Under the pieces are notes generated by a model. The model was not told the DNA's origin. It made no database searches and saw nothing but the letters and a program-made list of their open reading frames with translations. 64,000 nucleotides of DNA from a plasmid. Positions 20,295-62,164 of the stretch are shown here, piece after piece (within the stretch, counting starts at the first letter, position 1; each line of letters begins with the position of its first letter). Where the stretch lies: sequence record CP121101.1, one strand, 5' to 3'. The position numbers were made by a program, and so were the translations under genes.

Positions 20295-21764
20295 TTATTT
20301 CATGAAAGAGGCTCCCACTTTCGTGGCTAGTCCGGCCCCCCCCTTTGCCATGGACGCCAGTTTGCCGACGTTCCCAGATGTTCCACCAAAGTCAGCACCA
20401 TGGGATCCAACCCCAGGCATGACAACCTGTATGCCAACCAGCCCCAGGATGAAGAACCAGACCAATGGCAAATACGTGTAAAGCTGAAGAGCTGCTGCAC
20501 GAGCGTATGTTCCATTCGTGGATACGGTCGCAAATATGACATCAACCAGACTGCCCACCCAGGTTGCCAATGACACGATGGCAGTCGTGAACTCAACCCC
20601 GAAATAGAGACCCGCAAGCAGCAGAGTAACTTTTATGTCGAAGCCTCTAAATACCAAGATGATGGGTATAACCATTAGTAGAATCATTTGCACAACGGCC
20701 ATCTGAATCGGGATAGACTGACGAAACACGATCGCGTCTGGAGCGTTGACAGCATTCGCAACTGATGTTGTAAATGCTGCGATCATCTGAGCAACTTCGC
20801 TATCCTCATTGTTGGTTCTGGTACCCATACTATCTTCAACAACAATTTTTCCGCCTGGTAATTGGAAGGCATCGCCAATTGCTCTTTTGGTGCTACCAAT
20901 CATCTCACCTGCAAGCCGATATGCGATCTCCTGCTCGGAGAGATTATGCTTCTCCGCCATCTGCTTTAGCATGACAGGAAAGCCCTCGGTTTGATTTAGG
21001 CGCTGCAAGCTGCTTCCCATCAAATGAACGAAGGCTTGATTGCACCCCAGAATTGTTTGGCCGCCCGAGTTATCACCAGCCAGGCCCAGGCCGGAGGCAA
21101 CCTCACTATTAACGAGAACCACACTCCCTTCTTTCTTGTACTGAGCGATGAAATCAGGATGGCCTATCCACCAGGTTCCATCAAACTTAGAGCCTTGGGA
21201 CACTTTACCGGAAGCGGGTGCGAGACAACTCTTGCCCCACTGTTGGGCTAGTTCTCGATCTTGTGGGTTGGTGAAATTTGCGGAATTCACGTTTGAATTT
21301 ATAGCAGCGATGTCCTCAGCGCATGGTGTTGTCGAGATAACCACGTTTGTGGTGATACTGGAAAAGTCATGCACTGCTGCCCAAAACATTGGTGCCTTGG
21401 TACTCGAGCTATTGAAATTCCCCACCATGCTAATTACTGAGTTTGTTGGATTTGGCGCACCAGGATCAACACACGAATTTGCAGGACGTGTGGCGATATT
21501 ACTTGTAACATCCACCACTGGAATAAAGGCCAGAATAAACACAGTAAAAATGCCGAGTAATCGCTTCCTTAGAAATTTAACCGCTAGCTCACCGGCATTT
21601 CCTTCATCATCCCCTTGGGTCATGGCTTCAACTATAGACTGGACTATAGCCACAAAGAATGGGGCATAGACTAGGCCACTTATACATAATGCTTCAACTA
21701 CAACATCCATCATATGCACCCCCATCAAGAGGGTGTACGGATCAACCCAATGGTTTGCGATCAT
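20295..21764 (-). CDS. traG: TraG N-terminal-domain family membrane protein, paralogue B
   Basis: It is a polytopic membrane protein, clearly paralogous to 21761-23283. The N-termini MIANHWVDPYTLLMGVH and MIVNEWIEPYTLMMGVH align, and the NAGELAVKFLRK block is shared. Confidence 0.5.
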   Translation of the reverse strand: MIANHWVDPYTLLMGVHMMDVVVEALCISGLVYAPFFVAIVQSIVEAMTQGDDEGNAGELAVKFLRKRLLGIFTVFILAFIPVVDVTSNIATRPANSCVDPGAPNPTNSVISMVGNFNSSSTKAPMFWAAVHDFSSITTNVVISTTPCAEDIAAINSNVNSANFTNPQDRELAQQWGKSCLAPASGKVSQGSKFDGTWWIGHPDFIAQYKKEGSVVLVNSEVASGLGLAGDNSGGQTILGCNQAFVHLMGSSLQRLNQTEGFPVMLKQMAEKHNLSEQEIAYRLAGEMIGSTKRAIGDAFQLPGGKIVVEDSMGTRTNNEDSEVAQMIAAFTTSVANAVNAPDAIVFRQSIPIQMAVVQMILLMVIPIILVFRGFDIKVTLLLAGLYFGVEFTTAIVSLATWVGSLVDVIFATVSTNGTYARAAALQLYTYLPLVWFFILGLVGIQVVMPGVGSHGADFGGTSGNVGKLASMAKGGAGLATKVGASFMK

Positions 21765-23283
21765 GATGATTTTCCGCCTGACTTCATGAATGACTTGCCG
21801 GCGGAGTTTGCCATACTTCCCGCTTGTTGCTGGATGCGAACGCTTGTATTGAGCCCATTGCTTACGCTCTGCTCCACTCCTTGAGAGGCACTTCCTATCA
21901 TCTGGCTGCCACCCTTAATGCCTACATAAGCCATGAGTGCCATCCACAGCTTTGGCAACAAGTCATAAGAGGTGTAACCAACCCTGGTCAAGATGCTCTC
22001 TTGCAGCCCAGAACGAATGTTGCAGAGCCCGCCCCAACCCCACCGTTGATGCTTGAATAGAAGAATAAATTGAGGGTATTATCCATCCAGGTGGCCAGGT
22101 TTACAAAAACCAACGTGAATTCAAGCCCGAAATATGTTGCGCTAATTGCAAGGGCAGTTTTTATATTGAAACCAGAGAATACCAACAAGATGGGCGTGGC
22201 CATAATAAGGGTCATCTGCATCACACAGATCTGAATCGGTGTTGTATTCTTCAACACTATCGTGCCCGGCGCCTTTAGCAAATTTCCAACCGCTGTCCCT
22301 AACCATCCGATCATCTCTTTCATGTAACCAGAAGCACTGTCTGGAGCAACAGAATGATCTGTTTCGCCTGCGAATAGATTGGTAAGTTGGGCGCTTGTTT
22401 GTGGTTGCACTTTGGCTACCTTCGACATCGCCAACTTCTTCTCTGTATCTGAGTCTTGTGAAGCGTTAATCAATATTTCTAGAGACCCTTGCGACTGGTT
22501 CCTTGCAGCCGAAACTGCGGCAGCCTCAATGTGTTGGTAAGCGACATCGCAATTTAGCCTTACTTCACCACCTTCAGATAGCCCAACCGGCAAGCCTGCT
22601 GCGATCGCGGACTCCCTGCTTATTAGAACCGTATTTTGCTCCTTCTTATAAAACTCACGCATTGACTGGGAGCCCGCCCAGGTAGAGTCATCAAGACTTC
22701 CTCTACGGGTTGCATCACCAACTGCAGGGCTGAGGCATGCACGTTGCCAACTATCTGCAATGGTCTGGTCATAACTATTCTCAAGATTTGCCGCCTGAAT
22801 ATTAACAGATGCCATCTGCAAATCAGCAGCACAAGGAGTATTGGCAATAACTGTGTTTGTGAATGTTGAAGCATAGTCATGAACCGCGAGCCACCAAACG
22901 GGTACTTTGGTGTAACCGCCTTGAAAATTACCCATCATCATTTGCTGATTTGTTGTTGGAGGCGCCTGGATTCGCTGATCTCCATCGCAAGAATAATTGC
23001 TTATGTTGACATCAAATCTCATCTGACTGTTCGCCATTGGAACGAAGGCGAGAATAAACACTGGGAAAATGATCAATAGTTCTTTGCGGAGAAATTTCAC
23101 CGCTAATTCACCGGCATTACCCTCATCCACGCCCTGAGTCATTGCCTCAACAATTGATTTAACGATCGCAAAAAAAAATGGTGCATAAACCAATCCACTG
23201 GAGCAAAGTATTTCAGTGATGACTCCCATTGAGTGCACACCCATCATAAGCGTGTACGGTTCTATCCACTCATTTACAATCAT
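21761..23283 (-). CDS. traG: TraG N-terminal-domain family membrane protein, paralogue A, frameshifted near 21990
   Basis: ORF 21988-23283 plus the 76-aa ORF 21761-21991. The tail of the small ORF (GKSFMKSGGKSS) matches the C-terminus of paralogue B. Confidence 0.5.
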
Positions 23284-23570: not shown

Positions 23571-23631
23571 TTCAGCTCCAGGGATTTATAGAGAAAGCAA
23601 CGGATATGCCGTTGCTTTCTACTGGGAAATA

Positions 23632-24984: not shown

Positions 24985-25117
24985 GAAACAGCCTATTTTA
25001 ACTTGCTTGCTCAGAGAAATGGGGTGCGCAAATGGACGTGGATTATCCGCCACACCGGAAGTTGCATTGGCTCGAGACCGTGTTAACGTGGACCCAGTTA
25101 ATTGAAGGAGTTGTTTT

Positions 25118-38835: not shown

Positions 38836-39780
38836 TTATTTGGTGGGATTTTTAAACAATTTATTTGCTACATTGTTGCTGAACCAAAACGGATGCGTTT
38901 GGTGGAGCAGGAATAAACCATGCCTGGGTTCCATTCTGATCAGTTTCCCATATCCGGACGTAAGCTCTCGTTCCATCAAACCGGCCCTCAACAGCCCCCA
39001 TTTTGTTAAACGGAAGCCATTTTTGCTGTATGACAGAGGAATCACGTTTACTTTGCGAGTCCCGCGATTAGTAGGACAGGAGACAAGGGAAACGATCTGG
39101 TTATTTTGTTGCACATTACCCCAAGCCAACCCAGAAAGTACGGTGCGATTTGTGAGGCCGGAAATAGAAAGATCTTTTACGTTCTCGATGGCATATCCGG
39201 CAGCATTCATGTTCCCCTTTAGCGCCCTCGATCCATCAAGCATATAAAAATTGTCGTGAGCAACCTCAGTGCCTGGTCGACCAATTTCCGTAACTATATT
39301 TGTTCCAGATACGGTAGCAAAAGGCAGTGAAGACAATAATCCAGCGGCAACGTCATTTCGTTGATCTGCTGGCACTTTTGCGAGTGGTATGGTCAATTCG
39401 AACCTTGGAATTGTTGGGTTCCCAGCTACACCATAAGTCCTTACAGAAATAGCATCCCCCCAGAGAGTTTCAGTCATTGGCCGGCAGTTACCCGCACTCG
39501 CATCACTTACGGTACAGTTCCTAATGTAACCCTCATTAATTAGTACCTGAATCGATGATGGGAAGTTAGTAGGTGTAACTGTGTTATTGCTCTTAGATGT
39601 GAACTGATACCTTTCCGCTGCTTTTGAAAAAAGCTCAGCAATGCGAAGGCCTTGTTGTTCCGCAGCAGAATCAATTCTTTGCTGCCTCATTTCATTGTAA
39701 ACAATCATGCTCACGAAAATTAAAACTGGAAGAACTATAGAAAGTTCAATGAGTGTAAATCCACTCTGGCTTTTACGCAT
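38836..39780 (-). CDS. pilV: Type IVb minor pilin / adhesin PilV-like
   Basis: It has a prepilin leader MRKSQSGFTLIELSIVL (a G/F cleavage site). Confidence 0.55.
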   Translation of the reverse strand: MRKSQSGFTLIELSIVLPVLIFVSMIVYNEMRQQRIDSAAEQQGLRIAELFSKAAERYQFTSKSNNTVTPTNFPSSIQVLINEGYIRNCTVSDASAGNCRPMTETLWGDAISVRTYGVAGNPTIPRFELTIPLAKVPADQRNDVAAGLLSSLPFATVSGTNIVTEIGRPGTEVAHDNFYMLDGSRALKGNMNAAGYAIENVKDLSISGLTNRTVLSGLAWGNVQQNNQIVSLVSCPTNRGTRKVNVIPLSYSKNGFRLTKWGLLRAGLMERELTSGYGKLIRMEPRHGLFLLHQTHPFWFSNNVANKLFKNPTK

Positions 39781-40490: not shown

Positions 40491-40835
40491 TCAACCAGGC
40501 TGGGGTTGGTAGTGTTTTGCTACAACGGTAATATCACCACCAAATGCATTTGCCGCCTTACCATCTTTGGCAGTACCACAGACGCTGGCATCAAGCAGCT
40601 TAGACCCCGTCGCACACAACACGCTCATGCTCACACCATTCTTATTCGGGCGCCCTTTTTTCCAACGCTCCGTTGCAGTTGTGATTTGTTGCATCTGCTT
40701 TATGAGCGCCTCTTGCTTAGTTTGATATTTTACACCTTCAGCTACTTGCAGAACGACCACCAAGAGAACGGCTGCAATTGCCACCACAATGGAAAACTCG
40801 ATCAATGTGAAGCCGCCTTGTTTTTTGGAAGCCAT
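40491..40835 (-). CDS. pilS: Type IVb major pilin PilS-like
   Basis: Its leader is KKQGGFTLIEFSIVVAIAAVL. Confidence 0.5.
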   Translation of the reverse strand: MASKKQGGFTLIEFSIVVAIAAVLLVVVLQVAEGVKYQTKQEALIKQMQQITTATERWKKGRPNKNGVSMSVLCATGSKLLDASVCGTAKDGKAANAFGGDITVVAKHYQPQPG

Positions 40836-41921: not shown

Positions 41922-43437
41922 AACAGCTCCTTAATTTGTTCAGCAGCAGAGTGAATATCGCATATCCCAGCCCTTACTTTTTTAAGTGCATAGTGCTTAA
42001 TATTTTTCCAGCCATTCTCCAACAAGTGGATCTTCCACGCCAACGCATCACCTTTAGCTATGAATTTACGGTCGTCATCTGTTAAGACGATGACCTCCAT
42101 TACCAAGGTTCTACCTTTTTCACCTTCAACACATTTGCTGCAACCATTACTATTCTTTACTCGAGCGAGGTGTAGATCTACACCCAGAGCTCTGCGCAAA
42201 ATAGCCTGCTGTTCTTCGGTTGCCTTTTCATGCGGAATTGAACAGTACGGGCAAAGAACCCTGATTAGCCTCTGATGAGCGAAGACTGAGAATACATCAG
42301 GGCTACTGGCGATTACTGACGGCACGCGTAAATGTTCTACCAGCTTGGTTGCAAGACCGGTTGCACTTGAAGTATGTGTGGTTCCGATTAACAAGTGCCC
42401 GGATTCTGAAAGGTGAGTAAATTCCGCGGCGCTTTTTTGGTCACGCACCTCACCAAAATAAATGACGTCAGGATCTTGCCTGAGCATTACTTTTCCGTAA
42501 TACGCAAGTCACGCTCTTTACCTTTCTTTGTCAGGCCATAATCAATTCGCGTTTGAGAAACCCCATCCAAACTCCATTCAGGTGGGTCTTCAAGCGTATT
42601 GATATTGCGGCCATCATCAATAGTTGATAGCCCCGCCATAGCTACTGTGGTTTTCCCTGAACCGGTGGGTCCAGAGAAAAAAACGGCCCCTTGAGGCTGC
42701 TTGAATGCATGCTCAATGATTTCAATGTGATCTTCGTCCATCCCCATATCTGCGAACGAAGGAATATCGTCCCTAATGGGTGTCAGTAATCGCAGTACGG
42801 TTTTGGTACAGTCTTTATCGTCGCTACTGCTACTAACAGGTAGCATTGACGTCCGCCAATCCCATGCTTTTTGAACATTATTTACAGAGATAATCTTACT
42901 AAAGCTTCCAGCATTTGGAATTAACGCTGAATAGCTTTCTTCTGAACCGCTGTGACCATTAAATACATAAGCTGTTAGTTCTGCCCCATATTCTTTTGTC
43001 TGAGGTGCAGAGATATCAATCAAACGACCATCAATACGACATTTTATTATTGTTTTCTTTCCTTTCACCAAAATGTGTATATCAGATCCCCCCATTCTAA
43101 TACACCTTGACAGCAATCCCATCAAGCGGTCTTCAACTTGTGTTGGTGCGACATCAGTGGCGTTCTTAGCACTTTGTTGGACTGTGTCGACACTTTGAGT
43201 TGAACCGACCTGCAAAGCATTCAGTACTACTTCGCTATCAGCAAGATTAATATTCGGCTCCTTACCATGCAGCTGAACCTTAACCTTAGAAATTATTGTA
43301 TTTAAGTTATCACTCTTTGGATCTGATGTGTAAACGACCCAGTTCTCATCAACGAAGCAGCTTTTGTCCTCCCGGCAAAGTGCTAAGATTTCATCATCAT
43401 CAATTAATGACACAGTGTTTTTAATTGCCATGTTCAT
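41918..43437 (-). CDS. pilQ: PilQ (GspE-family pilus assembly ATPase), split by a frameshift near 42487
   Basis: Walker A GPTGSGKTT is in the upstream ORF. Walker B DPDVIYFGEVRD and the His box LLIGTTHTSSATG are in the downstream ORF. The two meet at a TAATG stop/start overlap. Confidence 0.65.
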
Positions 43438-44182: not shown

Positions 44183-45305
44183 TGTGAGCCACCTCCAAAC
44201 TGAATTACCGCATTATTGAGGGTGCAATCCCCTTCCTTGCTAATGCTGAACGTTGCTGATTCCAATTTTATTGGCATTCCTTTCATCGCATTACCAAGCT
44301 CGCTAATGAACCAAGGATTAGCCTTTGCGATGGTCAGGCTGGCCTTTCTACTTGCCCATACCCCATTAGCTTCTATGGGTTCATAGCTTGCTTTCAAACC
44401 TGATATCAACGAAAGCTTTGAAAACAAATCAAAGACTGTATCATCAAGAACCTTGAAATTGGCATGATGTGAACTCCAATAGGAACTCAGAGGGATAGCT
44501 ACTCGAATAAATGGTGATGACCCGCTGAATGACATAGATAGGTTATTTTTTTCAGTCCATGCATTTATCACTTGTCTATCGATCACAACTTCAGGCAACA
44601 CCATATTGATGCTGCCTATTTCGATGGTTCCCGCAGGCAAATCCGTGACAACGGGAATTGTTCCAAACTTTGCACACGTCACACCAAACTCACTGATCGC
44701 ATCACCCGCAAGTTGCACATCTGTCCATGCTGCGCGATAGGCATACCAGGGATCCGTTACTTCCGGTGGCGGCGGTGGTGGCGGTTCAGGCCATAGAAAC
44801 CAGGTAACAGCTGCAATAACAGATATACAAACAAGTGATGGTTTAACCATTCTTGCCAATGCAGAACCACGAAACTCAACGAGCTCGAAGTCATCAGGCC
44901 TTAAATTTAAAGCCTCAATTATCGTTGTTTCTATGCCATGAACAGATAATTCGGTTGTAGAAAAAATGCGGTCAGATGGGTGTACCTGCAACCACTCAGA
45001 CACAATTCCGTAGCATCGACGACTTCATCACGACGAATATCTCCAGCGTCCCAGAGAACGCATCGATAGGCGCGGTCTGAAGCAATAATGCACACCCATT
45101 TCCTGGGGGTGTCTTTCACTTCGTGAATTAGTGCCTCAGCAATGCATTCGCCCCAAGCAATATCAGCCTCATCAGAGGCTACCCGCGTTAGCAGTTCTCC
45201 ATTCTCGAATATCCGCTCATACTTAGCCGGATACTCCACCCGCCACCGCTTCAGGACTTCTTTTTGCTTACCACCATGCGGCAGAGTAGTTCTGATAGTT
45301 CCCAT
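44179..45305 (-). CDS. pilO: PilO-like protein, apparently frameshifted near 44931-45003
   Basis: An N-terminal cytoplasmic ORF 44931-45305 overlaps a 274-aa ORF that has a TM and a polyproline stretch. Confidence 0.4.
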
Positions 45306-45309: not shown

Positions 45310-46821
45310 CTATATCCGCTTAGGGGTGATCAGAACAATTGTTTCTGTCATGCTACTTTCACCTGAGTTCCCACCCAAGAATGAATTCTTAAATACAGAT
45401 GTCTCATCAGACTTATTTGACTTCTGTTTGTATCCATTAAGCACGAGGGTTTCGCCATATTTAAGGCCAATATCTTGATCAAACTTTATTTCTTGAACTT
45501 GCGGCGGCGCCCGAATTGTTACACCGCTCACTTCTGTATCATCCCATTTAATAACTTTTGATAGAACTCCAGAAATTTGGAGGTTTACCATATCATCTGA
45601 TATATTTGGCATCACGGACATTGTAAGGCCATCACTTACAACGGCATCTTCAACTTCAACGCTTGCATCGGCATTTTCATTTGGTGTAACTGTTACTCTG
45701 GCAATATATGTCAGTTTTTCCGAGTTATCTATTGAGGCCACTCTGTTATTTCTAGCAACAGTTCTTGGCTCATATTCTACACCAACATGCCCTTGAGTTT
45801 GCAGTGACTTCATCAGGATGGTTGTTCCATCCCATTTTGGATTTGTCGAGGTAAATGAAAATCCATAATTCCCTGAATCACCTAGGGTTGGCAGTGATGG
45901 ACCAGCAAACTGCAGCTTACCTTCTGAAAGATTTCGTATAACATTCCAATCAATGCCAAACGCAGAACCTTTGCCTCCTTTGAATTGGAGAACCTTTACT
46001 TCAATCATCATTACCTGGCGAGCTATTGCCTGTTTTCTTGATGAAATATAGCTCTCAACCAGGCTCATACGATGCGGGGTTGTTCTAACAAGAATAGAAG
46101 CAGTCGAGGAAGTTACGATTACATTCCCTTCTAATGGGTTCTTATCATCCTTACTTGCACCGTCACGCCTCAGAATCGACTCTATAGCAGCTAAATAGTC
46201 ATCAAACGGATTTATGTCGACCACTTCAGTGGTTGCGTAAGTATCCGAATTCCCAAGAGAGCTTGTAATTGTTCGGTTTGCTAATCCCTCACCGCTATTA
46301 TTTACTGAGTTAGCCTTGCGGCCAAAGAGGAATGAACTTTTTCCCAAGAGTGAATTTAACTCAAATACTTTTGTGACATATCGTTCAAAATTAATTTTGT
46401 TCCCAAGAACACTAACGGAAATGTCAGCTTTTGCTGCGATCTCATTTAGCGCCCCATTCACATCCCCCTGATAATCCACAGAAATAATTTTGTCTTGGAC
46501 CACATCAGGTCCATAGTTAACTGATATTTTCTGATCGGCCGATTGCAGCAAGTTCCTTACTGCAAAGCTAAGCGGTATATTTTGGCCTTGAATGGTGGCG
46601 GGCTTTCTGACCCACCAAGGGGCCCCCTCACCGATTGTCGGATTCAAGTCCAAAGGGGGCTTGTCGATATAGATACTTTTAGAGGATTCATGCTTACCCT
46701 CATACGCCTTAATTTGTCCAAGTGTATCGTTAGCAGCATTTTTCTGCTCCAAATGATCCGTGGCACCACACCCTGAAAGAGCTATGATAACTGCTGTTGC
46801 AATAGCACTGCGCGATTTCAT
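45310..46821 (-). CDS. pilN: PilN secretin-family outer-membrane lipoprotein
   Basis: It has a lipobox (IIALSGC) and a secretin C-domain (VLVRTTPHRMSL...IEVKVLQF). Confidence 0.6.
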   Translation of the reverse strand: MKSRSAIATAVIIALSGCGATDHLEQKNAANDTLGQIKAYEGKHESSKSIYIDKPPLDLNPTIGEGAPWWVRKPATIQGQNIPLSFAVRNLLQSADQKISVNYGPDVVQDKIISVDYQGDVNGALNEIAAKADISVSVLGNKINFERYVTKVFELNSLLGKSSFLFGRKANSVNNSGEGLANRTITSSLGNSDTYATTEVVDINPFDDYLAAIESILRRDGASKDDKNPLEGNVIVTSSTASILVRTTPHRMSLVESYISSRKQAIARQVMMIEVKVLQFKGGKGSAFGIDWNVIRNLSEGKLQFAGPSLPTLGDSGNYGFSFTSTNPKWDGTTILMKSLQTQGHVGVEYEPRTVARNNRVASIDNSEKLTYIARVTVTPNENADASVEVEDAVVSDGLTMSVMPNISDDMVNLQISGVLSKVIKWDDTEVSGVTIRAPPQVQEIKFDQDIGLKYGETLVLNGYKQKSNKSDETSVFKNSFLGGNSGESSMTETIVLITPKRI

Positions 46822-47726: not shown

Positions 47727-48290
47727 TTGATGATCTCCGTCGCTGTGATTGTCGCGGATCGATCCCTTTCATGTATCTGCGGAAGAAGCGGCAATCCAGC
47801 CAGGAACGCTTCAAGAGCCTTTATCGGCTCTTTTTTATCGACCTCAAAACCGGCATCAAACTGCCAATCGCAGTGAGCCGGTACGGTCTTAGACCAACGG
47901 ATTGCCTGCAACCCCAACGCAAAGCGGAGGCTCTCCAGCTGTCCACGTAGTGATCCAGGATGCACGCTGAAGTAACGCTGTTCTCGGTCCCGACGAATGA
48001 AATTGATCGATCGCCTGCTGACGGTCATTGATGATGTGACGTAGGCGAGTAATCTGCCCGGTGATCCGCGCGTTATGCTTGGCATACTCATCACGCAAAA
48101 GGGCCAGGTCGTTCTGTAGCAGTTCGATTTCAGTGTTGAGCTCTATGAGCGTTTTGTCGCCATAAGTATCACGTGCCATCTCCGCCATTGGCGGAGTTCT
48201 CCTCTCAGGCCGTGTGTCGCCTGGTGAAGCCTGCACCTGCGATATCCCCAGCAGGGCAACGACACTGAATGCCAAAACACTTTTTCTCAT
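47717..48290 (-). CDS. Hypothetical secreted coiled-coil protein upstream of pilL, apparently frameshifted
   Basis: ORFs 47889-48413 (signal peptide MRKSVLAFSVVALLGISQVQA) and 47717-48094 overlap in different frames. Confidence 0.3.
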
Positions 48291-48755: not shown

Positions 48756-49067
48756 AGTGCCCTTCCTTAGTATTCATCACTCATGATGATTGTTGTGGTG
48801 CTGCGGTCTGCCTCAGTGATAACCCATATCCTACCTTGGCCTTTATCAGCCGGCAGGCTGGATAGAACCCTCTCATCATTGCTGATAGCATCAAGGTTCT
48901 TAAGTCTCTGTGCATGGCTCCACAATAACCCCTCTCGATGAGCGTCAAGCAAAGCTGATGACGATATGCCCAGGCGTTCAAGTGTTTCCATAGCGACTGG
49001 AGTGGCCCGCACGTTCCTAAATTAAACATTTGTAGTTCCTGTTTCTGTGCCCTGGAGGCTTAAATTG

Positions 49068-49337: not shown

Positions 49338-49366
49338 GATTATGCCTCGTTGAATTTGGTTTTAAT

Positions 49367-50088: not shown

Positions 50089-50920
50089 GTGTGATCCCTA
50101 CTAAAAAATTCAACGGAAAGAAACTAACTATTAATGCTCAATAATTGTCACTCTCCGCTTACCCCATTCTGAGAGTTGTCTATAAACGACTGCGCATCAG
50201 CTTTAGATTATATTGATCTCATAAAAATGAAAATGATATTTTTCATGTTTCGGATACTCTGAGTATTTTTTCTACCCCCACATCACCCATCATGCCCCCA
50301 GATTGGTAACTTTGGCTATATGATCCGATTCCACCCCGGCAGTGGCCCGCGGCGACCAAGACGGAACAACCGATTGGCAATAGCACTGAAGACATACCGC
50401 ACTGGTTGGTAGCCTTAGAGCAAGCCACCAGAACATAACTGCGGTGTTCGAGCCCTACACTTGACGAATCACTGGTTGGCTGGGCCGCCGCAAACACTTG
50501 TGGACGGCTTAGTTCCACAGCAATGCTTTGCGGCACCCTTGAGCCACAATGGGCCGCGACTTGCAAGAGCTCCCCTACAACCCAAACTGAATAATCTGCT
50601 CTGGTGGCGGTTAATCTTCAAGAACATCATCAATCTACCCACCAAAGTGCCGACCAACCTAGTGCTGGGTCTCACCCTAATAACCATTCAACCGAATTAA
50701 TTTTTGTATAGATTGATTGGGCAACTATTTTGTAATTGAGGAACGTCTACCATTCTACGTATTGCCAATCTTGCAAGCGCAAGATTGAATCCGATATCTA
50801 TATCCTGCTCAGGGTATCGAGCGCCCCTCAACTTTATAACTACATTTAAATTACTACCGGTTGTGAACTCAGACCATACGAGTGTATCTTGCTTACAACC
50901 AAAATAGTCCAACAGGGCTA

Positions 50921-51481
50921 TTACATTCTTAGCATAAACACCCTTATAATTACTAATAGCAACTGCATCGGCGAAGTGTTTATATGCTTCAAAGTATTCC
51001 CCTTCTCAACTCCCAACCTTCCAATGTAGCTATATGATGCAGCTAACCCCTCATGAGATAAAGTTTTGTCACCAGAACTAAACTTAATAAATTCAACAAA
51101 CTGCTCCGACTGAGTTTTTGTCAGTTCAAACTCATCCAGATTAACCATGGCCGGCAAATTGACAATAATATTTGCGTCATTTTTTTCCATTCCTGAAAGA
51201 AATGCTTTTTTGGCTAACTTTACCCACTCCAAACGCTCTTCTGTTACATAACAAATCCGGGATGAAAAACGTTCACAGTTTGGTTCCATAACATCAAGCA
51301 TTCTTCGCTCATCAAGATGCTTTATTAAGGCATTTCCATAAACAGTTAAATTGATTGCATTATCCATGCTTTGATTGTGGTACTTATCAACAAGTCTCAC
51401 TCCCTCATAATCTGTGTCTTTGCACCCGCAGAGAACAGCACCCAGGACCACCATACAAAAAGTAATCTCAAATTTATTCAT
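50921..51481 (-). CDS. Lipoprotein in an AT-rich islet
   Basis: It has a lipobox (LGAVLCGC). The local GC is far below the rest of the window. Confidence 0.4.
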   Translation of the reverse strand: MNKFEITFCMVVLGAVLCGCKDTDYEGVRLVDKYHNQSMDNAINLTVYGNALIKHLDERRMLDVMEPNCERFSSRICYVTEERLEWVKLAKKAFLSGMEKNDANIIVNLPAMVNLDEFELTKTQSEQFVEFIKFSSGDKTLSHEGLAASYSYIGRLGVEKGNTLKHINTSPMQLLLVIIRVFMLRM

Positions 51482-51769: not shown

Positions 51770-53760
51770 CACCACCCAGCCGGTACTGGCCAACTTGAGC
51801 GCCGAGCTCGCAGCAGCCCGGGGCCACCTGATGCACAGACCCGCCGGACCCAGTACCGGCACAACCCCGCCGGCAGTGGCCAACCTTGGCGACGAGCTCG
51901 CAGCAGCCCGGGGCCACCTGCAGCACTGACCCACCGGACGCAGTACCGGATCCACAGCCAACCTAGACGCCGGGACCGCGGAGGCCCGCAGCCACCTACG
52001 GCACCGGCAACACCGGACACTGCGCCAGATCCCCCCGCCAGCTGTCGCCACCCTGGCACCGAGAGCTCGGCGGCCCAACTGGCGCAGCACCTGATCACCC
52101 TGCCGGCACTGGCCACCTTGGGCGTCGAGCTCGCAGCGACCCGGGACCACCTGCAGCACAGACCCAACAGACGCAGTAACGGATCCCCCGCCGGCAATGG
52201 CCAACCTGGGCGACGAGCTCGCAGCAGCCCAGGGCCACCTGCAGCACTAACCCACCGGACGCAGTACAGGATCCCCCGCTGGCAATGGCCAACCTGGGCA
52301 CCGAGACTTCGGCGGCCCGCAGGACGCTGCACCGGCCTCCCACCCGGTCGACGGCTACTTTGGGTGACGATCTCGCAGTAGCCCAGTACCACCTGTTACT
52401 CCTTCCCACCGGGCGAAACACCGAATCACACGCCGGCTGTGGTCACCCTGGTCGTCGGACTCCCAGCGGCCCAGGGCCACCTGCTACTCCTTCCCACTAG
52501 GCGAAGCGCGCCGGGTCACCCCGCCACCGCTGGGTAACCTCTGCCCGAAACCGCAGCGACCCGAGGCCACCGGCAGCACAGACCCGCCGGACCCAGTACC
52601 GGCACCACCCCACCGGCAGTGACCAACCTGAGCGCTGAGACCGCGGCGTCCAGGGGCCACTTGCTGCACCGGCAACACGGGGCGCACAGACCCGCCGGAT
52701 GCAGTTCCGGATCACCCGCCGGCTGTGGCCCCCTGGGTGCCGGCTCGCAACTGCCCGGGGCCACCGGCTACACCGACCCAACTGGCGCAGCACCTGATCA
52801 CCCAGCCGGCAGTGGCCACCCAGGGCGTTGAGCTCGCAGTGGCCTGAGGCCACCGGAAGCACAGACCCGCCGGATGCATTACCTGATACACCCCGCCGGC
52901 GGGACCGCGGAGGCCCGCAGCCACCTGGTGCACCGACCCCCACCCGGTCGATGGCCACCCTGGGCGCCGGCTCGCAACTGCCCGGGGCCACCGGCTACAC
53001 CGACGACCAACAACTGGTGCAGTACCTGATCACCCCGCCAGCAGTGGCCACCCAGGGCGCCGGCTCGCAGCTGTACGGAGCTACCTGCAGCACCGACCCA
53101 CCGGACGCAGTGCCGGATCCACCCCGCCGGCGTTGGCCACCCTCGGCGCCAGGACCGCGGAGGTCCGCAGCCACCTACGGCACCGGCAACACCGGACACT
53201 GTGCCAGATCCCACCGCCAGCAGTGGCCAACCAGGGCGACGAGCTTGCATCTGTACGGAGCTACCTGCAGCACCGACCCACCGGACGCAGTACCGGATCC
53301 ACCCTGCCAGCAGTGGCCACCCTCGGCGCCGGGACCGCGGTGGCCCGCAGCCACCTGCAGCACCGACCCACCGGACGCAGTACCGGATCCACCCTGCCAG
53401 CAGTGGCCACCCTCGGCGCCGGGACCGCGGTGGCCCGCAGCCACCTACGGCACCGGCAACACCGGACACAGCGCCAGATCCCACCGCCTGCAGTGGCCAA
53501 CCTGGGCGACGACAAGCTCGCAGCAGCCCGGGGCCACCTGCTGCACCGGCAACACCGGACACTGCGCCAGATCCCACCGCCAGCAGTGGCCACCCAGGGC
53601 GTGGAGCACGCAGCGGCCCGGGGCCACCTGCAGCACAGACCCACCGGACGCAGTACCGGATCCACCCCGCCAACAGTGGCTACCCTCGGCGCCGGGACCG
53701 CGGAGGCCCGCAGCCACCTATGGCACCGGCAGCACAGACCCGCCGGGCGCAGTAACGGAT
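51770..53760. repeat. GC-rich (about 70%) tandem repeat array, about 90-bp period and about 20 units, central units degenerate
   Basis: Direct repeats of ...ggcgacgagctcgcagcagcccggggccacctgcagcaccgacccaccggacgcagtaccggatcc... alternate with a related variant. All six frames are largely open. One plus-strand frame (ORF 52828-53790) shows third-position wobble. Confidence 0.8.
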
Positions 53761-55800: not shown

Positions 55801-57158
55801 TCAGCTTGCTTTCGCGTAAGGAGCCGGTGGTCTCCCCTTTCACGTATCTTCGACATTGCCGGTTCTTTGTAAAGATGCACACTCTACTTGTGCCGGCATT
55901 GTGTGGTTTTCACACAATGGCCATCAGTTTCTCAGTGCTAATTCTCCCACTGGTTTTACCAATGCAAGGCGGCCGCCCCTTCAACACAGGTATTCAGGCC
56001 GCCGACTCGCCGGACGCTGTGGACTTGATCTCTCAACCAGCTCGGCACAGGTCCGGGGCGATCCAGCCCTACCACACCGGCAGCGTAAACGCTGAACATC
56101 GATTAGCTCGGTGGTCCATTGCCACCTGCAGCCACTGGATGCTAATCCATATCACTGGTTGAGGTCGTTCTTAGCTCCGTGCACCAGATCAATGACACCA
56201 GAGCTGGCCGCTCTGGAGGCGCAGTAAGCACCATCGGATAAAGGTTCCCGAACTCTACATTCACCCCGGCAAGGGCCCTCAGGTCACCAGCCGTGTCGAC
56301 CCCAAATATCAAGCCGGTCGGCAGCTCGCTTCCACCTACAGTGCTAGCAGCGCCGAACTATACACCTGACCTCCGGAACCAGCCCTAACCACTCTGAACC
56401 TACGTACCAGCTCAGTGGTACCGGCGTGCCCCCTTGGATGCTGAGCTCACAGCGGCCCAAGGCATGTCAGATCCCTCCCCTCCTCTCGGCCGAAGCGAGC
56501 TAAACCGAGCCCTGGGTCCCGAGATCGGCATGCACACCGACAAAAGCCCACAACCATCCCCAGGCCCCTCCGCTCACCGGCACCGGTGCAGGTCTCCCAG
56601 GACGCCGAATCCACTGTGGCCAGGGGTCCGTAACATCTGGTCCTTCAAGGGTACTGGGTCCAGAACTCGGCAAGCACACCAACTAGATCCCGCCACCACC
56701 ATTGCAGGCCCCACTAAACACCTGCACCGACCCAGGATCCGTTGAACACTTCGCACAAGCTCACTGGTGCCCCCTTCCCTGAAATCAACCAGTAGGCATC
56801 CCACACCAGGTCACCAGCCCCGACGCTAGCCGCTCAGGGGGTGCCTTGAAAGACGCCGTAGCACAGAGGCCCGAATTCAGCATGCACACAGACAAAAGCC
56901 TGGGCCTAGCACACGAGTGAGATCTTCCGGGCCACTTGCTGTACCGCGAGCACATTGATAGTGCAGGCCAACACCAATCAGAACTGGGGGCTAATCAGGC
57001 GTGTGTTCAGGAGGCTGTGACTGGCGGGCTCGCCAGTGAATACCTGCAACTTGCTGACGGAATGGATTTGCCCGTCAGTGCGCTCATGGCGCCAGTTGCA
57101 TTGCGAAGATCTGGGGGATGATCGAAGTAAGCAAAAAAATCGTCTACGGGTGCTATAA

Positions 57159-60100
57159 ATGTCCTTTTTGAACGCAACGGCTTTCCTTGATTACTTGTTC
57201 TGCCCTCCCCTTTCAGGGCACAAAACAACCGTCATCGCAAAAACGGTGTCCCAAAAAATCAGGTGCAATATTGAAGCGATCAAAATTGTAAAGCGCTGCT
57301 TGGCTGATGGCTCGCTGGCTGTATCTGACGTCGAGCGTGATGTCCTTACTCAGTATACCGGATGGGGTCAACTATCAGGACTCTTTGAGCCAGAACACCC
57401 CCAGCATGCCGAATTGAAATCGCTAGTCACTCAAGCAGAATTCGCTGCGTTGGAAGCATCTGTATTGACCTCCTATTACACCTCCGAATGGATTATTGAT
57501 GCCATGTATCGTGCCGTGGCACGCCTGGGTGTGCAGGAAGGTCTATTACTCGATTTCGCTACAGGCTCAGGTAAATTTTTGGCGGGGCGCCCAGCGACTC
57601 TTTCAGCGATGAAATCCTTTGCTGTTGAGTTGGATGGCCTGACAGGGACTATCGCCCGCCTGCTGAACCCTGCAGCCAAGATCTATGTCAATCAGCCGTT
57701 CGAGCAAGTAAAGCTCCCGAATAGTGGCGACTTTTCCCTAGTTATTGGAAACCCGCCATACTGCTCTGTTCCTGCCAGGGATAGAGCATTTGGCACTCTT
57801 CCACTACATGCCTACTTTCTGATTAGGGGGTTGAGCGAACTGCACCACGGCGGGCTAATGGCTGTTGTCGTATCAAGCTGGGTAATGGACTCGAAAGATA
57901 ACGATGCGCGGCTATCTCTCTCGGCCAGGGGAAATTTGGTTGCAGCCTGTCGTCTGCCGAATTCGGTGTTCAAGGGTGAAGGAGCCAACGTTGTTACCGA
58001 TATTCTGGTCTTTCAAGCCTGCCAGCACCCGGAAGAAAACCCTTCATGGATCGACACCGTAGAGGTCAACGACGAAGCAGGCTCGGCATATCGTGTGAAT
58101 CGCTTGTTTGTGGATCGTCCTGAACTCGTCGCCGGCAAAATCTCAGCTCCTAGCACCTTCAATGTGTCTTGCAACGTTGCAGACCCTGGCCGTGATCTTG
58201 CGAGTGTTGTAACTGAAATCCTCGATATCCAGACTTCCAACCCCTTATTTTACCGTAAGTCTACGGTTCCAGTTGCAAGGAAAGGCGTCATTTCTGCCCC
58301 CGCTGGTATGAGCGATGTTGGGCCATATGAGTTTTGCCAAACTCCGGCGGGCGAGTTGATGCGTCGAGTGGCAGATCATGTTGATGAAAACGGGGCTAAG
58401 GTGCCCACGTTCCAACAGTGCGAGTTTAAATCAGCCAAGGATAGGCTGCGTATATCGGCCATGCTGAGAGTTAAGAGGGTCTTGGCATCACTCATCAACG
58501 CAGAGCAAAGCAATGCGCCAGACACCAGCTTGCGAGCTATTAGGGCTGATCTTAATGCAACCTATGACCGCTTTACTGCCGACTTCGGTCCGTTCCACGC
58601 CTCAAAAAACAAATCTGTACTTGGGGAAGATCCGTGGTATTACCGCTTACGTGCTCTCGAGCTGGACTACATCGCACCGATCAGTACCACGGTTGCCGAA
58701 AAGGAGGGCATCGCAGAGCGTAAAGAGCAATGGAGTAAGGGGGATCTGTTCACCCGCCGCGCAATCACTCCGTTGATCACTCCCAGCTATGCCGCGAACC
58801 TTGCCGACGCCGTGCTAATTTCCGTGAGCTACAAGGGTGAGGTCGATCTTTCATACGTTCGGGATCTGGTCGGCTTTAAAGGGACAGACCAAGAACTTTT
58901 GCATCAGTTGGCCGAACAATCTCTGGCATTTGCCGAACCAGATAGTGGCAACCTGGTCATTGCTGCAAAGTACCTTTCAGGTTACATCCCCAGCAAGATT
59001 GAGGCTGCACAAGGAGCGGCCGAATCCGACCCTCTGTTTGCTATCAATGTTGCCAAACTGCAGCGAGTCATGCCCTCCCCCATCAAGGCGGTAGACATTT
59101 TTGCACCGATGAACTCCCGTTGGCTGCCTAACCATTTCCACGCCGATTTTATCCGCCATCTGGTCGATCAGCCCAAATTGAATGCACAAGTTACCCTTAT
59201 CGACAACGAGTATCATGTTTCGCATGGCTCTCTTCCTCAAACCGTCTTAACCTCTGAATGGGGTACGCAGCGCCGCGATATGACCACCTTGCTCATTGCG
59301 CTTTTGAACAATCGCGCGATTGAGGTACGCGATCCACATCCGAGCATATCTAATACGACTGTTCCGAACCCGGACGAAACAATGGCCGCCCAACACAAAG
59401 CAGAGGAAATTAAGGCGGCCTGGGAGTCGTGGGTGCTGGATGATTCCGAACGCCGCAACGAAATTGAGCTTGCTTATAACGCACATTTCAACGGCTTTGT
59501 TGCCCCAAATATAATGGCTCACGCCTGCCTTTAACTGGTAGTGCAGTAGACCTATATCACACACAGAGAAACGCCATTGCTCGGGTCATTCATGAGTCGT
59601 GCACTTTGATCGATCACGCTGTCGGCGCCGGAAAAACGTTCACAATGATTGGCGCGGCAAGCGAACTAAGACGCATTAATAAATATGAGCGTGTAGTGCT
59701 GGTCGCGCCTAATCATCTTGTTGCTCAGCATGCCACCGCTGCACAATTTATTTTCCCTGGCATGAACATCTTTGTGCTCGATAAAACGATGATGACCCCG
59801 GCCACACGCCGCACAGCCTTAGCCCGCCTTGCAATGACAGACTTCGATCTATGCATCATCCCGCTGAGTGTGTTCGGGCTAATCCCAGCCCCTCACGATC
59901 TCTTAGTCGAAATGTTGGAAGCAGAGATTGATGATCTTCACCGGTGTTTGTCGGAGCTGAAAAATGAGCGGTTATCTGTACGCCGGATGCAGACGCGGAT
60001 CCAGCGCAAAGAAGCAGAACTCGAAGAACTGGTGAACAAACGCACTGATGAAATGCTCGACTTTGCTGACCTAAGGATCACAACTCTAATCATTGATGAG

Positions 60101-62164
60101 AGCCAATTCGGTAAGAACCTAAGTTATTCTTCATCCCTGCAAAGCGTTGCCGGCATGGGCCAGGCATCAGGCAGTAAGCGTGCCTTTGATCTATTTATCA
60201 AAAGCCGTGCTGTTCTGCGTGCCGGTGGGCGATATGTTGAGGCTACCGGAACACCAATCCTCAACTCCGTTGTGGAAGCACATCGACATCTGCGAGTGAT
60301 GGCCGAAGATTTTACTCAGTCAGCAAAGCTGACCCACTTTGACGCATTCAGTGCAGTTTTCGCCCAGCCAGTGACAGATTATGAATTGGCGGCGTCCGGG
60401 CGCGGCTACAAGATGAGAACTCGAATTAGTACATTCACAAATTTGACAGAGCTTCAAGCTATCTACTCAAGCTTCGCTGATGTAGTTACTTCTGAGCAGT
60501 TGCCTAATGTCTTGCCAAAACTAGCTGATGGCCGCAGTGCTATACCTCCCCTCACAGGGGGCAAGATCATCGAGCTGGTGATTGAACCCAATGAGCACCA
60601 GGAAAACGGCTTCGCCGAAATCGTCAGTGCATATTCTCGAGTCGATAACCGGGAGAACAACCCCCTTAAACTGCTCAACCGGGGGCGAATGCTCTCTCTC
60701 GATGCTCGGCTTGTGTACCCAGACGCACCGGACTACCAGGACAGCAAAATTAATACCGTAGTGCGCTACCTGCTCGAAAAATATCAAACGACAACTAGCG
60801 TTCGCGGTACTCAGATGGTCTTCATGGATCGCAGCATTCCCGCTCGCCATCGTGCCGGAGCTTCGAAAGAGTGGGCGGCAATATTCAACCTTGCTAGGCA
60901 GGGCGATGAAGAAGCGTTAGAGCGTATTGAAGGCCTAGACGAACTCGAACTTACCGCCATGGTCTGCAGTTCATTCAGCCTCTACGATGAGCTGGTAGAA
61001 AAATTGGTTGAGGGTGGCGTCCCCCGCAACGAGATCGCAGTGATCCACGATTACCGGACGGACACCAGAAAGGAAGCGTTGCGTGACATGATGAATGAGG
61101 GGCAGATCCGAATTTTGCTTGGCTCTACTGAACTGGCAGGCTCTGGGCTCAATATCAACCGGCGTTTGGTTTCGTTGGTTCACTTCGATCTCCCATATCG
61201 GCCCGGTGATTTGGCGCAACGAGCTGGCCGCATTGAGCGCCAAGGCAATCTGTTATGGGCGAATGACCCCGAGTTCACCATTGATATTGTTGTGCCAATC
61301 ACCCGTCGCTGTCTTGATGCTTGGCAACTGGGTTTGCTCAACACCAAGCAGCGCTTTATCAGCCGTTTCCGTCAACTCGATAGCTCAGTCCGGCACTACA
61401 CAGAGCAAAATGAAGCGATTGATTATGCCGAGTTAAGCGCCATCGTAGCCGATGACCCGCGAATCCTGGCTCATGTCAAAGGCAAAGCAAAGCTGCGAAA
61501 GCTTGAGGCAGCCCGGAATAACTGGTTCCGGAATCGCGTCAGATTGGACGACCAGGCACAATCCCTTGAGCAAAGAAGCGCAACCTTGGCGACCAAAATA
61601 CAGATGATTCGAGCCGATGCAGCTAACATTGCGGCCACGGCGGATGAGTTGTTGATCACTGTGGATGGTGTGACATATGAAAAAATGGGGGTGGATTCGA
61701 CGGCTACAGATCGTCTAAACATAACCGCCGCCGCCCCGGCTGTCGGTTCAAAATATGGCAGACTGAACTACCGTGCAGATATTGGCAGTCAACACGACAT
61801 GGCTACTTACCGGGGGGCTACTCTGGTCTATGAAAAGCCGTATTTCGCCAAGTTGTGCTTCGCCACCGAGTTCACAGTTCGCGGCCCCTCTGGTCATCAC
61901 TACGAGCTGAGAAATTTAGAGCGCAATAGCATTAACGCTGTGATGGCCGCCTTTGTCGTGCTCGTCGATACCTTGCCGCGCTTACCAAACATAGCCACGG
62001 CCCAAATGGCTACTTGGACAAAGAACGCTACCGACTATCGCACTGAGGCAGCGAAGCCATTCAGCGCCCAAGCAGAGCTTGATGAACTGATCCCATTTTT
62101 GCGGCAACTTGAAAAGGAATTGGCAGATTCAGCCACACATTCAGTAAATCAAATGGCCGCTTGA
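57159..62164 (+). CDS. N6-adenine DNA methyltransferase fused to an SNF2/DEAD-like helicase, with the frame interrupted near 59480-59534
   Basis: The MTase motif I is LLDFATGSGKFL and motif IV is VIGNPPYCS. The helicase motifs are HAVGAGKTF, IIDESQFG and QRAGRIERQG. The helicase frame stays open upstream to 59480 (YNGSRLPLTGSAVDLYHTQRNAIARVIHESCTLIDH) and overlaps the end of the MTase ORF. Confidence 0.65.

What the first reader, a model, noticed from the sequence alone, without database searches (positions are those of the whole stretch)
21761..62164. Pervasive frame breaks in conserved genes across the window
At least ten otherwise well-conserved genes are split into overlapping or adjacent ORFs. 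They are traG-A (about 21990), traC (two breaks, about 28520 and about 29800-29990), traK (about 32990), pilR (about 41500), pilQ (42487), pilO (about 44960), the pilL-upstream gene, istB (about 12010), the PAPS-reductase gene (about 7960), the 2084-2601 gene, and the methylase-helicase (about 59500). Several breaks fall at homopolymer runs. Either the assembly carries uncorrected indels, as in long-read data, or the element is a decaying, non-self-transmissible relic.
Basis: seen in the sequence. Interest (0 to 1): 0.6.

Follow-up and report, generated by a model that had tools for sequence, protein, structure and literature searches.

The report
Assembly indels on a 500-base grid
The broken genes are real in this sequence, but every break is a 1-7 base (net) insertion or deletion lying close to a multiple of 500 bases and missing from every other assembly of the same Aeromonas plasmid backbone, so they are joins left by assembly or polishing software, not gene decay.

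Summary
At least seven more genes are also affected.

They are not biological. The window is an Aeromonas MOBH plasmid backbone, about 99.6% identical to pAER-f909, where each of these genes with an annotated CDS is a single CDS.

- **Grid:** outside repeat zones, 29 of 33 indel events against pAER-f909 lie within -5 to +20 bases of a multiple of 500 in the window's own coordinates (P about 2e-33). The 41 substitutions are spread evenly.
- **Owner of the grid:** the phase stays continuous across an ISAs29 insertion that only the window has. The grid therefore belongs to this assembly.
- **Prediction test:** the only indel in that IS, compared with independent copies, is +CC at 12009-12010. It is on the grid and breaks istB.
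- **Other assemblies:** all 35 affected joins are unique to the window. The 1-13 near-identical assemblies covering each join all lack the indel.
- **Repair:** undoing only the on-grid indels restores every gene, for example TraC at 987 aa and the methylase-helicase at 1668 aa.
- **Homopolymers:** they are not the cause.

The best explanation is splicing errors from consensus or polishing done in 500-base windows, as Racon does. The decaying-relic reading is rejected. Interest is low, except as a quality-control flag.

The parts
2502..2503 (.). Join artefact: +CA, a tandem duplication, phase +2. It splits the 171-aa gene at 2084-2601 (- strand).
   Evidence: repaired ORF is 171 aa
4504..4505 (.). 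Join artefact: +GG with an adjacent mismatch at 4502, phase +4. It alters the 3' end of the lambda-exonuclease (YqaJ) gene.
   Evidence: 5 of 5 covering assemblies lack it
8006..8006 (.). Join artefact: +G, phase +6. It splits the PAPS-reductase gene, which is 856 aa when repaired.
   Evidence: 6 of 6
9505..10005 (.). Two adjacent join artefacts in the zinc-finger (DUF3268) gene: -TG at 9505, and a complex event of net +3 at 9999-10005.
   Evidence: 6 of 6 each
10502..11004 (.). Two intergenic join artefacts: -G at 10502 and +T at 11004.
11327..13941 (-). ISAs29 (IS21 family) insertion, absent from pAER-f909 and a real difference. Its only indel against independent copies is +CC at 12009-12010 (phase +9), which breaks istB (251 aa in the references).
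16008..16016 (.). Join artefact of net +6 inside the 36-nt tandem repeat of a hypothetical gene. Exact placement is ambiguous because of the repeat.
   Evidence: 7 of 7
17511..17511 (.). Join artefact: +T, phase +11. It breaks a 149-aa hypothetical gene.
   Evidence: 7 of 7
22012..22013 (.). Join artefact: -C, phase +12. It breaks TraG_N gene A, which is 507 aa when repaired.
   Evidence: 13 of 13
25009..25010 (.). Join artefact: -A, phase +9. It lies upstream of, or at the 5' edge of, the 450-aa hypothetical gene.
   Evidence: 13 of 13
28508..30008 (.). Two join artefacts in the conjugative ATPase gene traC: +T at 28508 and -A at 30007. They cut it into three ORFs. It is 987 aa when repaired.
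   Evidence: 7 of 7 each
32510..33011. Two join artefacts in the TIGR03749/DUF3438 (traK-like) gene: +AGG at 32510 (in frame) and -A at 33010 (frameshift). Repaired, the ORF is 311 aa; the gene is called at 310 aa in related assemblies.
36005..36006 (.). Join artefact: -T, intergenic.
38017..38020 (.). Join artefact: +GGTT, a tandem duplication, phase +17. It lies inside the invertible segment.
39011..39012 (.). Join artefact: -G, phase +11. It lies in the pilV-like gene, which is 306 aa when repaired.
40515..40515 (.). Join artefact: +T, phase +15. It breaks the prepilin (pilS-like) gene, which is 172 aa when repaired.
   Evidence: 11 of 11
41518..41519 (.). Join artefact: +G with an adjacent mismatch, phase +18. 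It splits pilR (T2SS-F family), which is 345 aa when repaired.
   Evidence: 11 of 11
42505..42506 (.). Join artefact: -A, phase +5. It splits the pilQ ATPase gene, which is 506 aa when repaired.
   Evidence: 7 of 7
45000..45001 (.). Join artefact: +AC, a tandem duplication, phase 0. It splits pilO, which is 374 aa when repaired.
   Evidence: 7 of 7
45501..46006 (.). Two in-frame join artefacts in the secretin gene pilN: +GCG at 45501 and +ATC at 46004, both tandem duplications. The window ORF is 503 aa against 501 aa in relatives.
48005..48008 (.). Join artefact: +GATC, a tandem duplication, phase +5. It splits the gene upstream of pilL (189 aa in relatives).
49006..49007 (.). Join artefact: -A, phase +6. 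It breaks an 87-aa hypothetical gene.
50502..51003 (.). Join artefacts: -C at 50502 (intergenic, with a compensating +T at 50527) and -T at 51002. The second breaks a 261-aa hypothetical gene.
52506..53514 (.). On-grid insertions inside the GC-rich 90-nt repeat arrays: +GC at 52506, +5 at 53005-53010 and +6 at 53507-53514. The last two are ambiguous because of repeat alignment.
56006..56507 (.). Two intergenic join artefacts: -T at 56006 and -G at 56506.
   Evidence: 5 of 5 each
59509..59510 (.). Join artefact: -A (AAAA to AAA), phase +9. It splits the 1668-aa methylase-helicase gene (+ strand, 57159-62164).
   Evidence: 4 of 4

Best explanation
The frame breaks are software artefacts. The contig's consensus was computed, or polished, in consecutive windows of 500 bases that were handled independently and then spliced end to end. 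At about a quarter of the joins (35 of 127 in this window) the splice lost 1-2 bases or duplicated 1-4 bases. Wherever such a join lies in a gene, the reading frame breaks.

The DNA molecule itself is an intact Aeromonas MOBH plasmid backbone of the pAER-f909 / pS121-1a type. It carries a complete ICE-type conjugation gene set and a type IVb pilus cluster.

**Shown:**
- the 500-base periodicity in the window's own coordinates
- the indels are private to this window
- removing them restores the genes

**Inferred:**
- the kind of program responsible. Racon works exactly this way and is normally run with 500-base windows. From memory, PacBio Quiver/Arrow also uses 500-base reference chunks.
For: **1. 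Periodicity.** Of 33 indel events against pAER-f909 outside repeat zones, 29 lie within -5 to +20 of a multiple of 500 (binomial P about 2e-33). Only 3 of 41 substitutions do, which is the chance expectation, and those three (plus a mismatch at 2492, 10 nt upstream of the 2502 indel) flank on-grid indels.

**2. The grid is in the window's coordinates.** Phases are 2-11 on both sides of the 2615-nt ISAs29 insertion that pAER-f909 lacks, and 6 to 9 across the site where pAER-f909 carries an ISL3. In pAER-f909 coordinates the phase jumps from about 141 to about 11.

**3. Prediction met.** Against independent ISAs29 copies in Klebsiella and Aeromonas plasmids, the IS in the window has one mismatch and a single indel, +CC at 12009-12010 (phase 9), inside istB.

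**4. Polarity.** The 89%-identical outgroup pS121-1a has the pAER-f909 length at every on-grid indel where it gives a clear local alignment; only 56006, in a poorly aligned (85%) intergenic stretch, is ambiguous.

**5. Other assemblies.** Twenty near-identical loci were compared. They include NCBI genomes, Logan read-run assemblies, an ENA metagenome contig and a JGI metagenome contig. At all 35 affected joins, every covering locus (1-13 per join) lacks the window's indel. No join is polymorphic among them. CP180565.1 matches the window over 21.5 kb with no independent substitution. The only differences are 11 on-grid indels, one adjacent mismatch and one G-run length.

**6. Repair.** Reverting only the on-grid indels gives single ORFs of the lengths called in relatives: TraC 987, TraG_N 507, PAPS reductase 856, pilQ 506, pilR 345, pilO 374, pilN 501, prepilin 172, pilV-like 306 and methylase-helicase 1668 aa.

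**7. Form.** 16 of 25 insertions are exact tandem duplications of the adjacent 1-4 bases.

**8. Natural control.** pAER-f909 against pS121-1a shows 3140 substitutions to 33 indels. Two of the 33 are on the grid. Only 8 fall inside the transfer and pilus CDSs, and those are multiples of 3, a closely spaced pair (37695/37702), or single bases near a CDS end (28101, 32869).

**9. Mechanism exists.** Racon splits the backbone into non-overlapping windows, calls each consensus independently and splices them (bioRxiv 10.1101/068122). It is routinely run with -w 500 (PMC8337076).
Against: - No reads, assembly metadata or source record were available. The source contig was not found by exact search in three collections, so the program cannot be named with certainty.
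- I found no paper that explicitly documents indels at Racon window joins.
- In coordinates corrected for the indels the phase drifts to -34, whereas in raw window coordinates it stays between -1 and +18. This fits re-gridding on a backbone that already had these lengths, but I cannot reconstruct the exact history.
- A few off-grid indels exist: the G-run at 38192 and the T-run at 54068, which are ordinary homopolymer differences or real variation; the A-run at 41873, where the outgroup sides with the window, so pAER-f909 is the deviant; and the 23-nt and 7-nt repeat-copy differences at 16691 and 37467.
Confidence: 0.9

Rival explanations
1. These are ordinary uncorrected long-read errors: random indels concentrated in homopolymer runs of a nanopore or PacBio assembly.
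For: The breaks are small indels private to this assembly. A few sit in short runs: AAAA at 59509 and CCC at 12009. Three long runs differ from pAER-f909: 38192, 41874 and 54068.
Against: - Positions are periodic at 500 bases, not tied to sequence context.
- Only 1 of 25 mono-base grid indels lies in a run of 4 or more. 78 of 81 runs of 6 or more are identical in length to pAER-f909.
- Many events are multi-base tandem duplications such as GATC, GGTT, AGG and ATC, which are not homopolymer slips.
Confidence: 0.03
2. The indels were introduced on a roughly 500-base grid by some other block-wise handling of the sequence after assembly. Examples are chunked re-alignment or format conversion, another chunked consensus caller, or deliberate or synthetic corruption of a correct sequence.
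For: - The grid follows the final coordinates more tightly than the indel-corrected ones.
- Apart from the grid indels, the window is base-for-base identical to CP180565.1 and to a GCA_027705405.1 contig over 14-21 kb.
- The artefact-bearing 37-mer is absent from all three public contig collections searched.
Against: - The window is not any single known record plus indels. It shares the ISAs29 site with CP180560.1 but continues on the far side like pAER-f909, so it is an independent assembly.
- Mismatches next to the indels (2492, 4502, 41519, 45496) and the complex event at 9999-10005 look like poorly supported consensus ends rather than clean edits.
- In either case the conclusion that the breaks are not biological is unchanged.
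Confidence: 0.06
3. The element is genuinely pseudogenised: a decaying, non-transmissible relic whose transfer, pilus and maintenance genes have accumulated real frameshift mutations.
For: Twenty CDSs carry on-grid indels, at least 17 of them frame-disrupting, across the conjugation and pilus regions. PLSDB types relatives as 'mobilizable' rather than conjugative.
Against: - Real mutations have no reason to fall at multiples of 500 in an assembly's coordinates (P about 2e-33).
- There is no accompanying substitution load. The only mismatch against CP180565.1 over 21.5 kb is adjacent to a grid indel.
- None of the 35 indels is shared with any of up to 13 near-identical plasmids per site.
- Intergenic joins are hit just as often (10502, 11004, 36005, 56006, 56506).
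- A recently inserted, otherwise identical IS copy carries the same kind of lesion on the same grid.
Confidence: 0.01
4. The breaks are programmed frameshift sites or phase-variable slipped-strand tracts that regulate the transfer and pilus genes.
For: Conjugative pilus loci can be phase-variable. A G11 tract and an invertible segment do lie next to the pilV-like gene.
Against: - The break sites have no slippery heptamers or simple-sequence tracts (contexts).
- Relatives encode the proteins in one frame.
- The periodicity is unexplained by this reading.
Confidence: 0.002

Closest known systems
Window-splice errors of windowed consensus polishers (Racon, also used inside Raven and Unicycler; from memory, PacBio Quiver/Arrow with 500-base reference chunks)
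   Same: - The backbone is cut into fixed non-overlapping windows, each consensus is called independently and the pieces are spliced.
- The usual window is 500 bases.
- The lesions here recur every 500 bases in the assembly's own coordinates. They are 1-4 base duplications or 1-2 base losses, sometimes with a neighbouring mismatch.
   Different: - The tool actually used is unknown.
- An error rate of about 27% of joins is high, which suggests low coverage or no later polishing with another method.
- I found no publication describing this specific signature.
Homopolymer indel errors of nanopore or PacBio assemblies
   Same: They are small indels private to one assembly that split genes into adjacent ORFs.
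   Different: These are not in homopolymers and are periodic. Long runs are almost all correct.
Aeromonas MOBH plasmids pAER-f909 (NZ_CP026221.1), pS121-1a (NZ_CP022170.1) and CP180565.1/CP180560.1
   Same: - The backbone, gene order and sequence are the same. Identity is 99.6% to pAER-f909 with the artefacts included, and the window is essentially identical to CP180565.1 over the transfer region.
- The ICE-type T4SS genes are shared: TIGR03752/03749/03756, TraC, TraU and TraG_N x2.
- The pilus cluster is shared: secretin, T2SS-E ATPase, T2SS-F and prepilins.
   Different: - The window has ISAs29 at 11327-13941.
- It lacks the ISAeme19 insertion that pAER-f909 carries in the methylase-helicase gene.
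- It has the opposite orientation of the segment next to pilV, and different copy numbers in the repeat arrays.

Membership tests
Windowed-consensus (500-base) splice artefact | Lesions recur at the window length in the assembly's own coordinate system. | tested here: met
   29 of 33 events lie within -5 to +20 of n x 500 (P about 2e-33). The phase is continuous across the window-specific IS but jumps in pAER-f909 coordinates.
Windowed-consensus (500-base) splice artefact | Lesions are absent from independent assemblies of the same sequence. | tested here: met
   At all 35 affected joins, every one of the 1-13 near-identical loci lacks the indel. The outgroup agrees wherever it aligns clearly.
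Windowed-consensus (500-base) splice artefact | Lesions are short duplications or losses at the join, independent of sequence context. | tested here: met
   16 of 25 insertions are exact tandem duplications of 1-4 nt. Deletions are 1-2 nt. Coding and intergenic joins are both hit.
Windowed-consensus (500-base) splice artefact | Reads or the assembly log show that a 500-base windowed polisher was used and that reads do not support the indels. | not testable with these tools
   No reads or metadata are available. The source contig was not found.
Homopolymer-type long-read error | Indels are concentrated in mononucleotide runs, typically of 4-5 or more. | tested here: not met
   Only 1 of 25 lies in a run of 4 or more and none in a run of 5 or more. 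78 of 81 long runs are unchanged.
Pseudogenised / decaying conjugative element | Inactivating mutations are at positions unrelated to assembly coordinates, are accompanied by substitution divergence, and are often shared with relatives. | tested here: not met
   Positions are periodic. The substitution-to-indel ratio is about 1:1 here against about 95:1 between natural relatives. No indel is shared.
Programmed frameshift / slipped-strand phase variation | A slippery motif or simple-sequence tract lies at the break, and the two-frame arrangement is conserved in relatives. | tested here: not met
   The contexts show no such motifs. Relatives have single-frame genes.
pAER-f909 / pS121-1a-type Aeromonas MOBH plasmid backbone | Collinear near-identity across the transfer, pilus and maintenance genes. 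| tested here: met
   Collinear blocks at 98.0-99.9% identity (95.3% across the 90-nt repeat arrays at 51764-53661) cover the whole window apart from the IS insertion, the inversion and the repeat arrays. There are 14 Aeromonas plasmid hits.

The most novel reading that the evidence does not exclude
At least some of the on-grid indels are real mutations in the plasmid. This copy would then be a recently and massively inactivated transfer element, and the 500-base spacing would be a coincidence or reflect an unknown periodic mutational process.
Probability: 0.01. Interest if true: 0.6.

Novelty: not a real feature. Interest (0 to 1): 0.07.

Why it matters
There is no biological claim here. The plasmid should be treated as carrying intact conjugation, pilus, IS and methylase-helicase genes.

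The practical value is quality control.
- Any annotation, pseudogene count or transferability call made from this assembly would be wrong. At least 17 genes in 64 kb would be called pseudogenes.
- The rest of the assembly probably carries the same lesions about every 2 kb on average.
- Taking frameshift positions modulo 500 is a cheap, reference-free way to recognise this class of artefact in other windows of the scan before they are read as gene decay.

Tried and rejected
- **E. coli genomes:** searching 25 kb of the window found no match.
- **Source contig:** an exact search for a 37-mer spanning the +GATC artefact found nothing in genome contigs, metagenome contigs or viral contigs. The source assembly could not be identified and the grid could not be followed beyond the window.
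- **Literature:** a search for papers describing errors at Racon 'window boundaries' returned none. Only the algorithm description and the usual -w 500 setting could be cited.
- **Exact-grid test:** I tested whether the grid becomes exact after removing the indels. It does not. The phase drifts to -34, whereas raw window coordinates keep it within -1 to +18. The grid is therefore tied to a backbone that already had about the final lengths.
- **CP180565.1 plus edits:** I considered that the window might simply be CP180565.1 with edits. This was rejected because the sister record CP180560.1 diverges from the window beyond the IS and beyond the 261-aa gene.
- **Other readings:** homopolymer error, pseudogenisation and programmed frameshifting were each tested and rejected, as set out under rival explanations.

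Full report
**What is there.** A megablast of window 21001-46000 against PLSDB gave 14 Aeromonas plasmids. The best is pAER-f909 of Aeromonas sp. ASNIH4 (NZ_CP026221.1) at 99.6% identity. A group at about 88-90% includes pS121-1a. There was no match in E. coli genomes.

In pAER-f909 and pS121-1a the genes in question are single CDSs:
- conjugative ATPase: 2964 nt in pAER-f909 (2973 in pS121-1a)
- TraG_N: 1524 nt
- TIGR03749: 933 nt
- T2SS-F: 1032 or 1038 nt
- T2SS-E ATPase: 1521 nt
- the 1125-nt pilO-like gene
- PAPS reductase: 2571 nt in pAER-f909 (interrupted by an IS5 in pS121-1a)
- a 5046-nt helicase-related gene in pS121-1a

**Whole-window comparison.** The window is collinear with pAER-f909 over all 64 kb, with these exceptions:
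- an insertion at 11327-13941 in the window, which is ISAs29 of the IS21 family
- an ISL3 element in pAER-f909 at window position about 58243-58252
- an inverted segment at 37845-38811
- length variation in tandem-repeat arrays at 15.7-16.1 kb and 51.7-53.7 kb

**The key result.** I listed every difference. The indels fall at 2502, 4504, 8006, 9505, 10001, 10502, 11004, 16008, 17511, 22012, 25009, 28508, 30007, 32510, 33010, 36005, 38017, 39011, 40515, 41518, 42505, 45000, 45501, 46004, 48005, 49006, 50502, 51002, 52506, 53005, 53507, 56006, 56506 and 59509. These are all multiples of 500 plus 0 to 18.

Outside the repeat zones, 29 of 33 indel events lie within -5 to +20 of a multiple of 500 (binomial P about 2e-33). 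Only 3 of 41 substitutions do, which is the chance expectation. Those three, and a fourth mismatch 10 nt upstream of the 2502 indel, are neighbours of grid indels. About 37 scattered substitutions therefore look like true divergence between two closely related plasmids. The indels are something else.

**Whose grid is it?** A period of 500 would appear in either sequence's coordinates, so the phase has to be followed across structural differences. In window coordinates the phase is 2-6 before the ISAs29 insertion and 8-12 after it. It is 6, 6 and then 9 across the ISL3 site. In pAER-f909 locus coordinates the phase is about 141 before the IS site and about 11 after. The grid therefore belongs to the window's assembly.

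This gave a prediction: the IS copy, which pAER-f909 cannot be used to check, should carry lesions only near 12000, 12500, 13000 or 13500. Against two independent ISAs29 copies (Klebsiella p52810_IncC and Aeromonas pMCR5_045096), the window's copy has one mismatch and exactly one indel. That indel is +CC at 12009-12010, inside istB.

**Polarity and independence.**
- In three-way alignments, the 89%-identical outgroup pS121-1a has the pAER-f909 length at every on-grid indel where it aligns clearly; the poorly aligned intergenic site at 56006 is the one ambiguous case. At the off-grid A-run at 41873 it sides with the window, so that difference belongs to pAER-f909.
- Exact-protein look-ups found many further assemblies carrying identical TIGR03752, SSB and H-NS proteins. 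They include NCBI genomes, Logan assemblies of sequencing runs, an ENA metagenome contig and a JGI metagenome contig. In all of them the neighbouring genes are intact: TraC 987 aa, TraG_N 507, DUF3438 310, pilQ 506, pilR 345, secretin 501, pilO 374 and helicase 1668 aa.
- CP180565.1 matches the window over 21.5 kb with no independent substitution. The only differences are 11 on-grid indels, a mismatch touching one of them, and a G-run length. A GCA_027705405.1 contig shows 0 substitutions and 6 on-grid indels over 14.2 kb.
- Across 20 near-identical loci, all 35 affected joins carry an indel that every covering locus (1-13 per join) lacks. No join is polymorphic among the relatives.

**Consequences for genes.** All 20 pAER-f909 CDSs that contain an indel contain an on-grid one.

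**Form of the lesions.**
- 16 of 25 insertions are exact tandem duplications of the adjacent 1-4 bases: CA, AC, GC, AGG, GCG, ATC, GATC and GGTT.
- Deletions remove 1-2 bases.
- Only one of 25 mono-base events lies in a reference run of 4 or more.
- Only three of the 81 homopolymer runs of 6 or more in the window differ in length from pAER-f909.

**Natural-divergence control.** pAER-f909 against pS121-1a over 30 kb shows 3140 substitutions and 33 indel events. Two of the 33 fall on the grid, which is the chance level. Only eight fall inside the transfer and pilus CDSs. These are multiples of three, a closely spaced pair of single-base events (37695/37702), or single bases near a CDS end (28101, 32869). 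Real evolution of this backbone does not produce the pattern in the window.

**Mechanism.** Racon cuts the backbone into non-overlapping windows, builds a partial-order-alignment consensus for each independently, and splices the window consensuses together (bioRxiv 10.1101/068122). It is customarily run with -w 500 (for example PMC8337076). From my own knowledge, 500 is its default. Also from memory, PacBio's Quiver/Arrow processes 500-base reference chunks.

Poorly supported window ends that are trimmed or overlapped by a few bases would give exactly these small losses and duplications. The slow wander of the phase (-1 to +18) fits window lengths changing slightly during polishing. In indel-corrected coordinates the phase drifts to -34, so the grid is tied to a backbone that already had about the final lengths.

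I could not identify the tool or the source record. I also found no paper describing this signature. The tool is therefore inferred, while the artefactual nature is shown.

**Verdict.** The 'decaying relic' half is refuted. This is not a real biological feature. Once the joins are repaired, the underlying molecule is an ordinary member of a known Aeromonas MOBH plasmid group with intact transfer and pilus genes.

Noticed in passing
window 37845-38811: A segment of about 970 nt lies just 3' of the pilV-like gene (38836-39780, - strand). It is bounded by 158-nt imperfect inverted repeats at 37845-38002 and 38654-38811. It is inverted relative to pAER-f909. Among near-identical plasmids both orientations occur: L010 and L011 match the window, while L009 and L012 match pAER-f909. 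It looks like a single-segment, shufflon-like switch of the pilus adhesin C-terminus. No recombinase gene was identified next to it.
   Followed up: partly
window 38192-38202: A poly-G tract inside the invertible segment is 11 G in the window, 9 in CP180565.1 and 8 in pAER-f909. It could be a homopolymer sequencing error or a real slippage-prone tract.
   Followed up: no
window 51764-53735: A 69% GC block is made of arrays of 88-90-nt tandem repeats, up to 8.5 copies, with long ORFs on both strands. Copy number and sequence differ from pAER-f909, and other relatives replace the region with resistance genes. Its function is unknown.
   Followed up: partly
window 15712-16087: A 36-nt tandem repeat (10.4 copies, 91% matches) lies inside a hypothetical gene of about 400 aa next to the SSB gene. 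Relatives have 364-388-aa versions, so the copy number varies.
   Followed up: no
window 4122-4330, 5512-5719, 9179-9333, 10170-10390, 49364-49571: A dispersed intergenic repeat of 150-230 nt (84-93% identity between copies) is present at five places in the window, upstream of or between maintenance genes. It may be a shared regulatory region.
   Followed up: no
window 11327-13941 and about 58243-58252: These are real structural differences from pAER-f909. The window has an ISAs29 (IS21 family) insertion that truncates a 183-aa hypothetical gene. CP180560.1 has the IS at the same left junction but different DNA beyond it. pAER-f909 has ISAeme19 (ISL3 family) inside the methylase-helicase gene, which is uninterrupted in the window.
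   Followed up: partly
window 41873-41881: An A-run near the 5' end of pilR is A8 in the window, and pS121-1a has the same overall length there (its run is interrupted). It is A9 in pAER-f909. The deviant is therefore pAER-f909, whose pilR is annotated 2 codons shorter (1032 nt, against 1038 nt in pS121-1a).
   Followed up: partly
window 16691 and 37467-37473: There are two off-grid repeat-copy differences from pAER-f909. The window has one copy fewer of a 23-nt direct repeat at 16691. It has one extra CGCCGTG unit at 37467, which CP180565.1 shares, so that one is real variation.
   Followed up: partly
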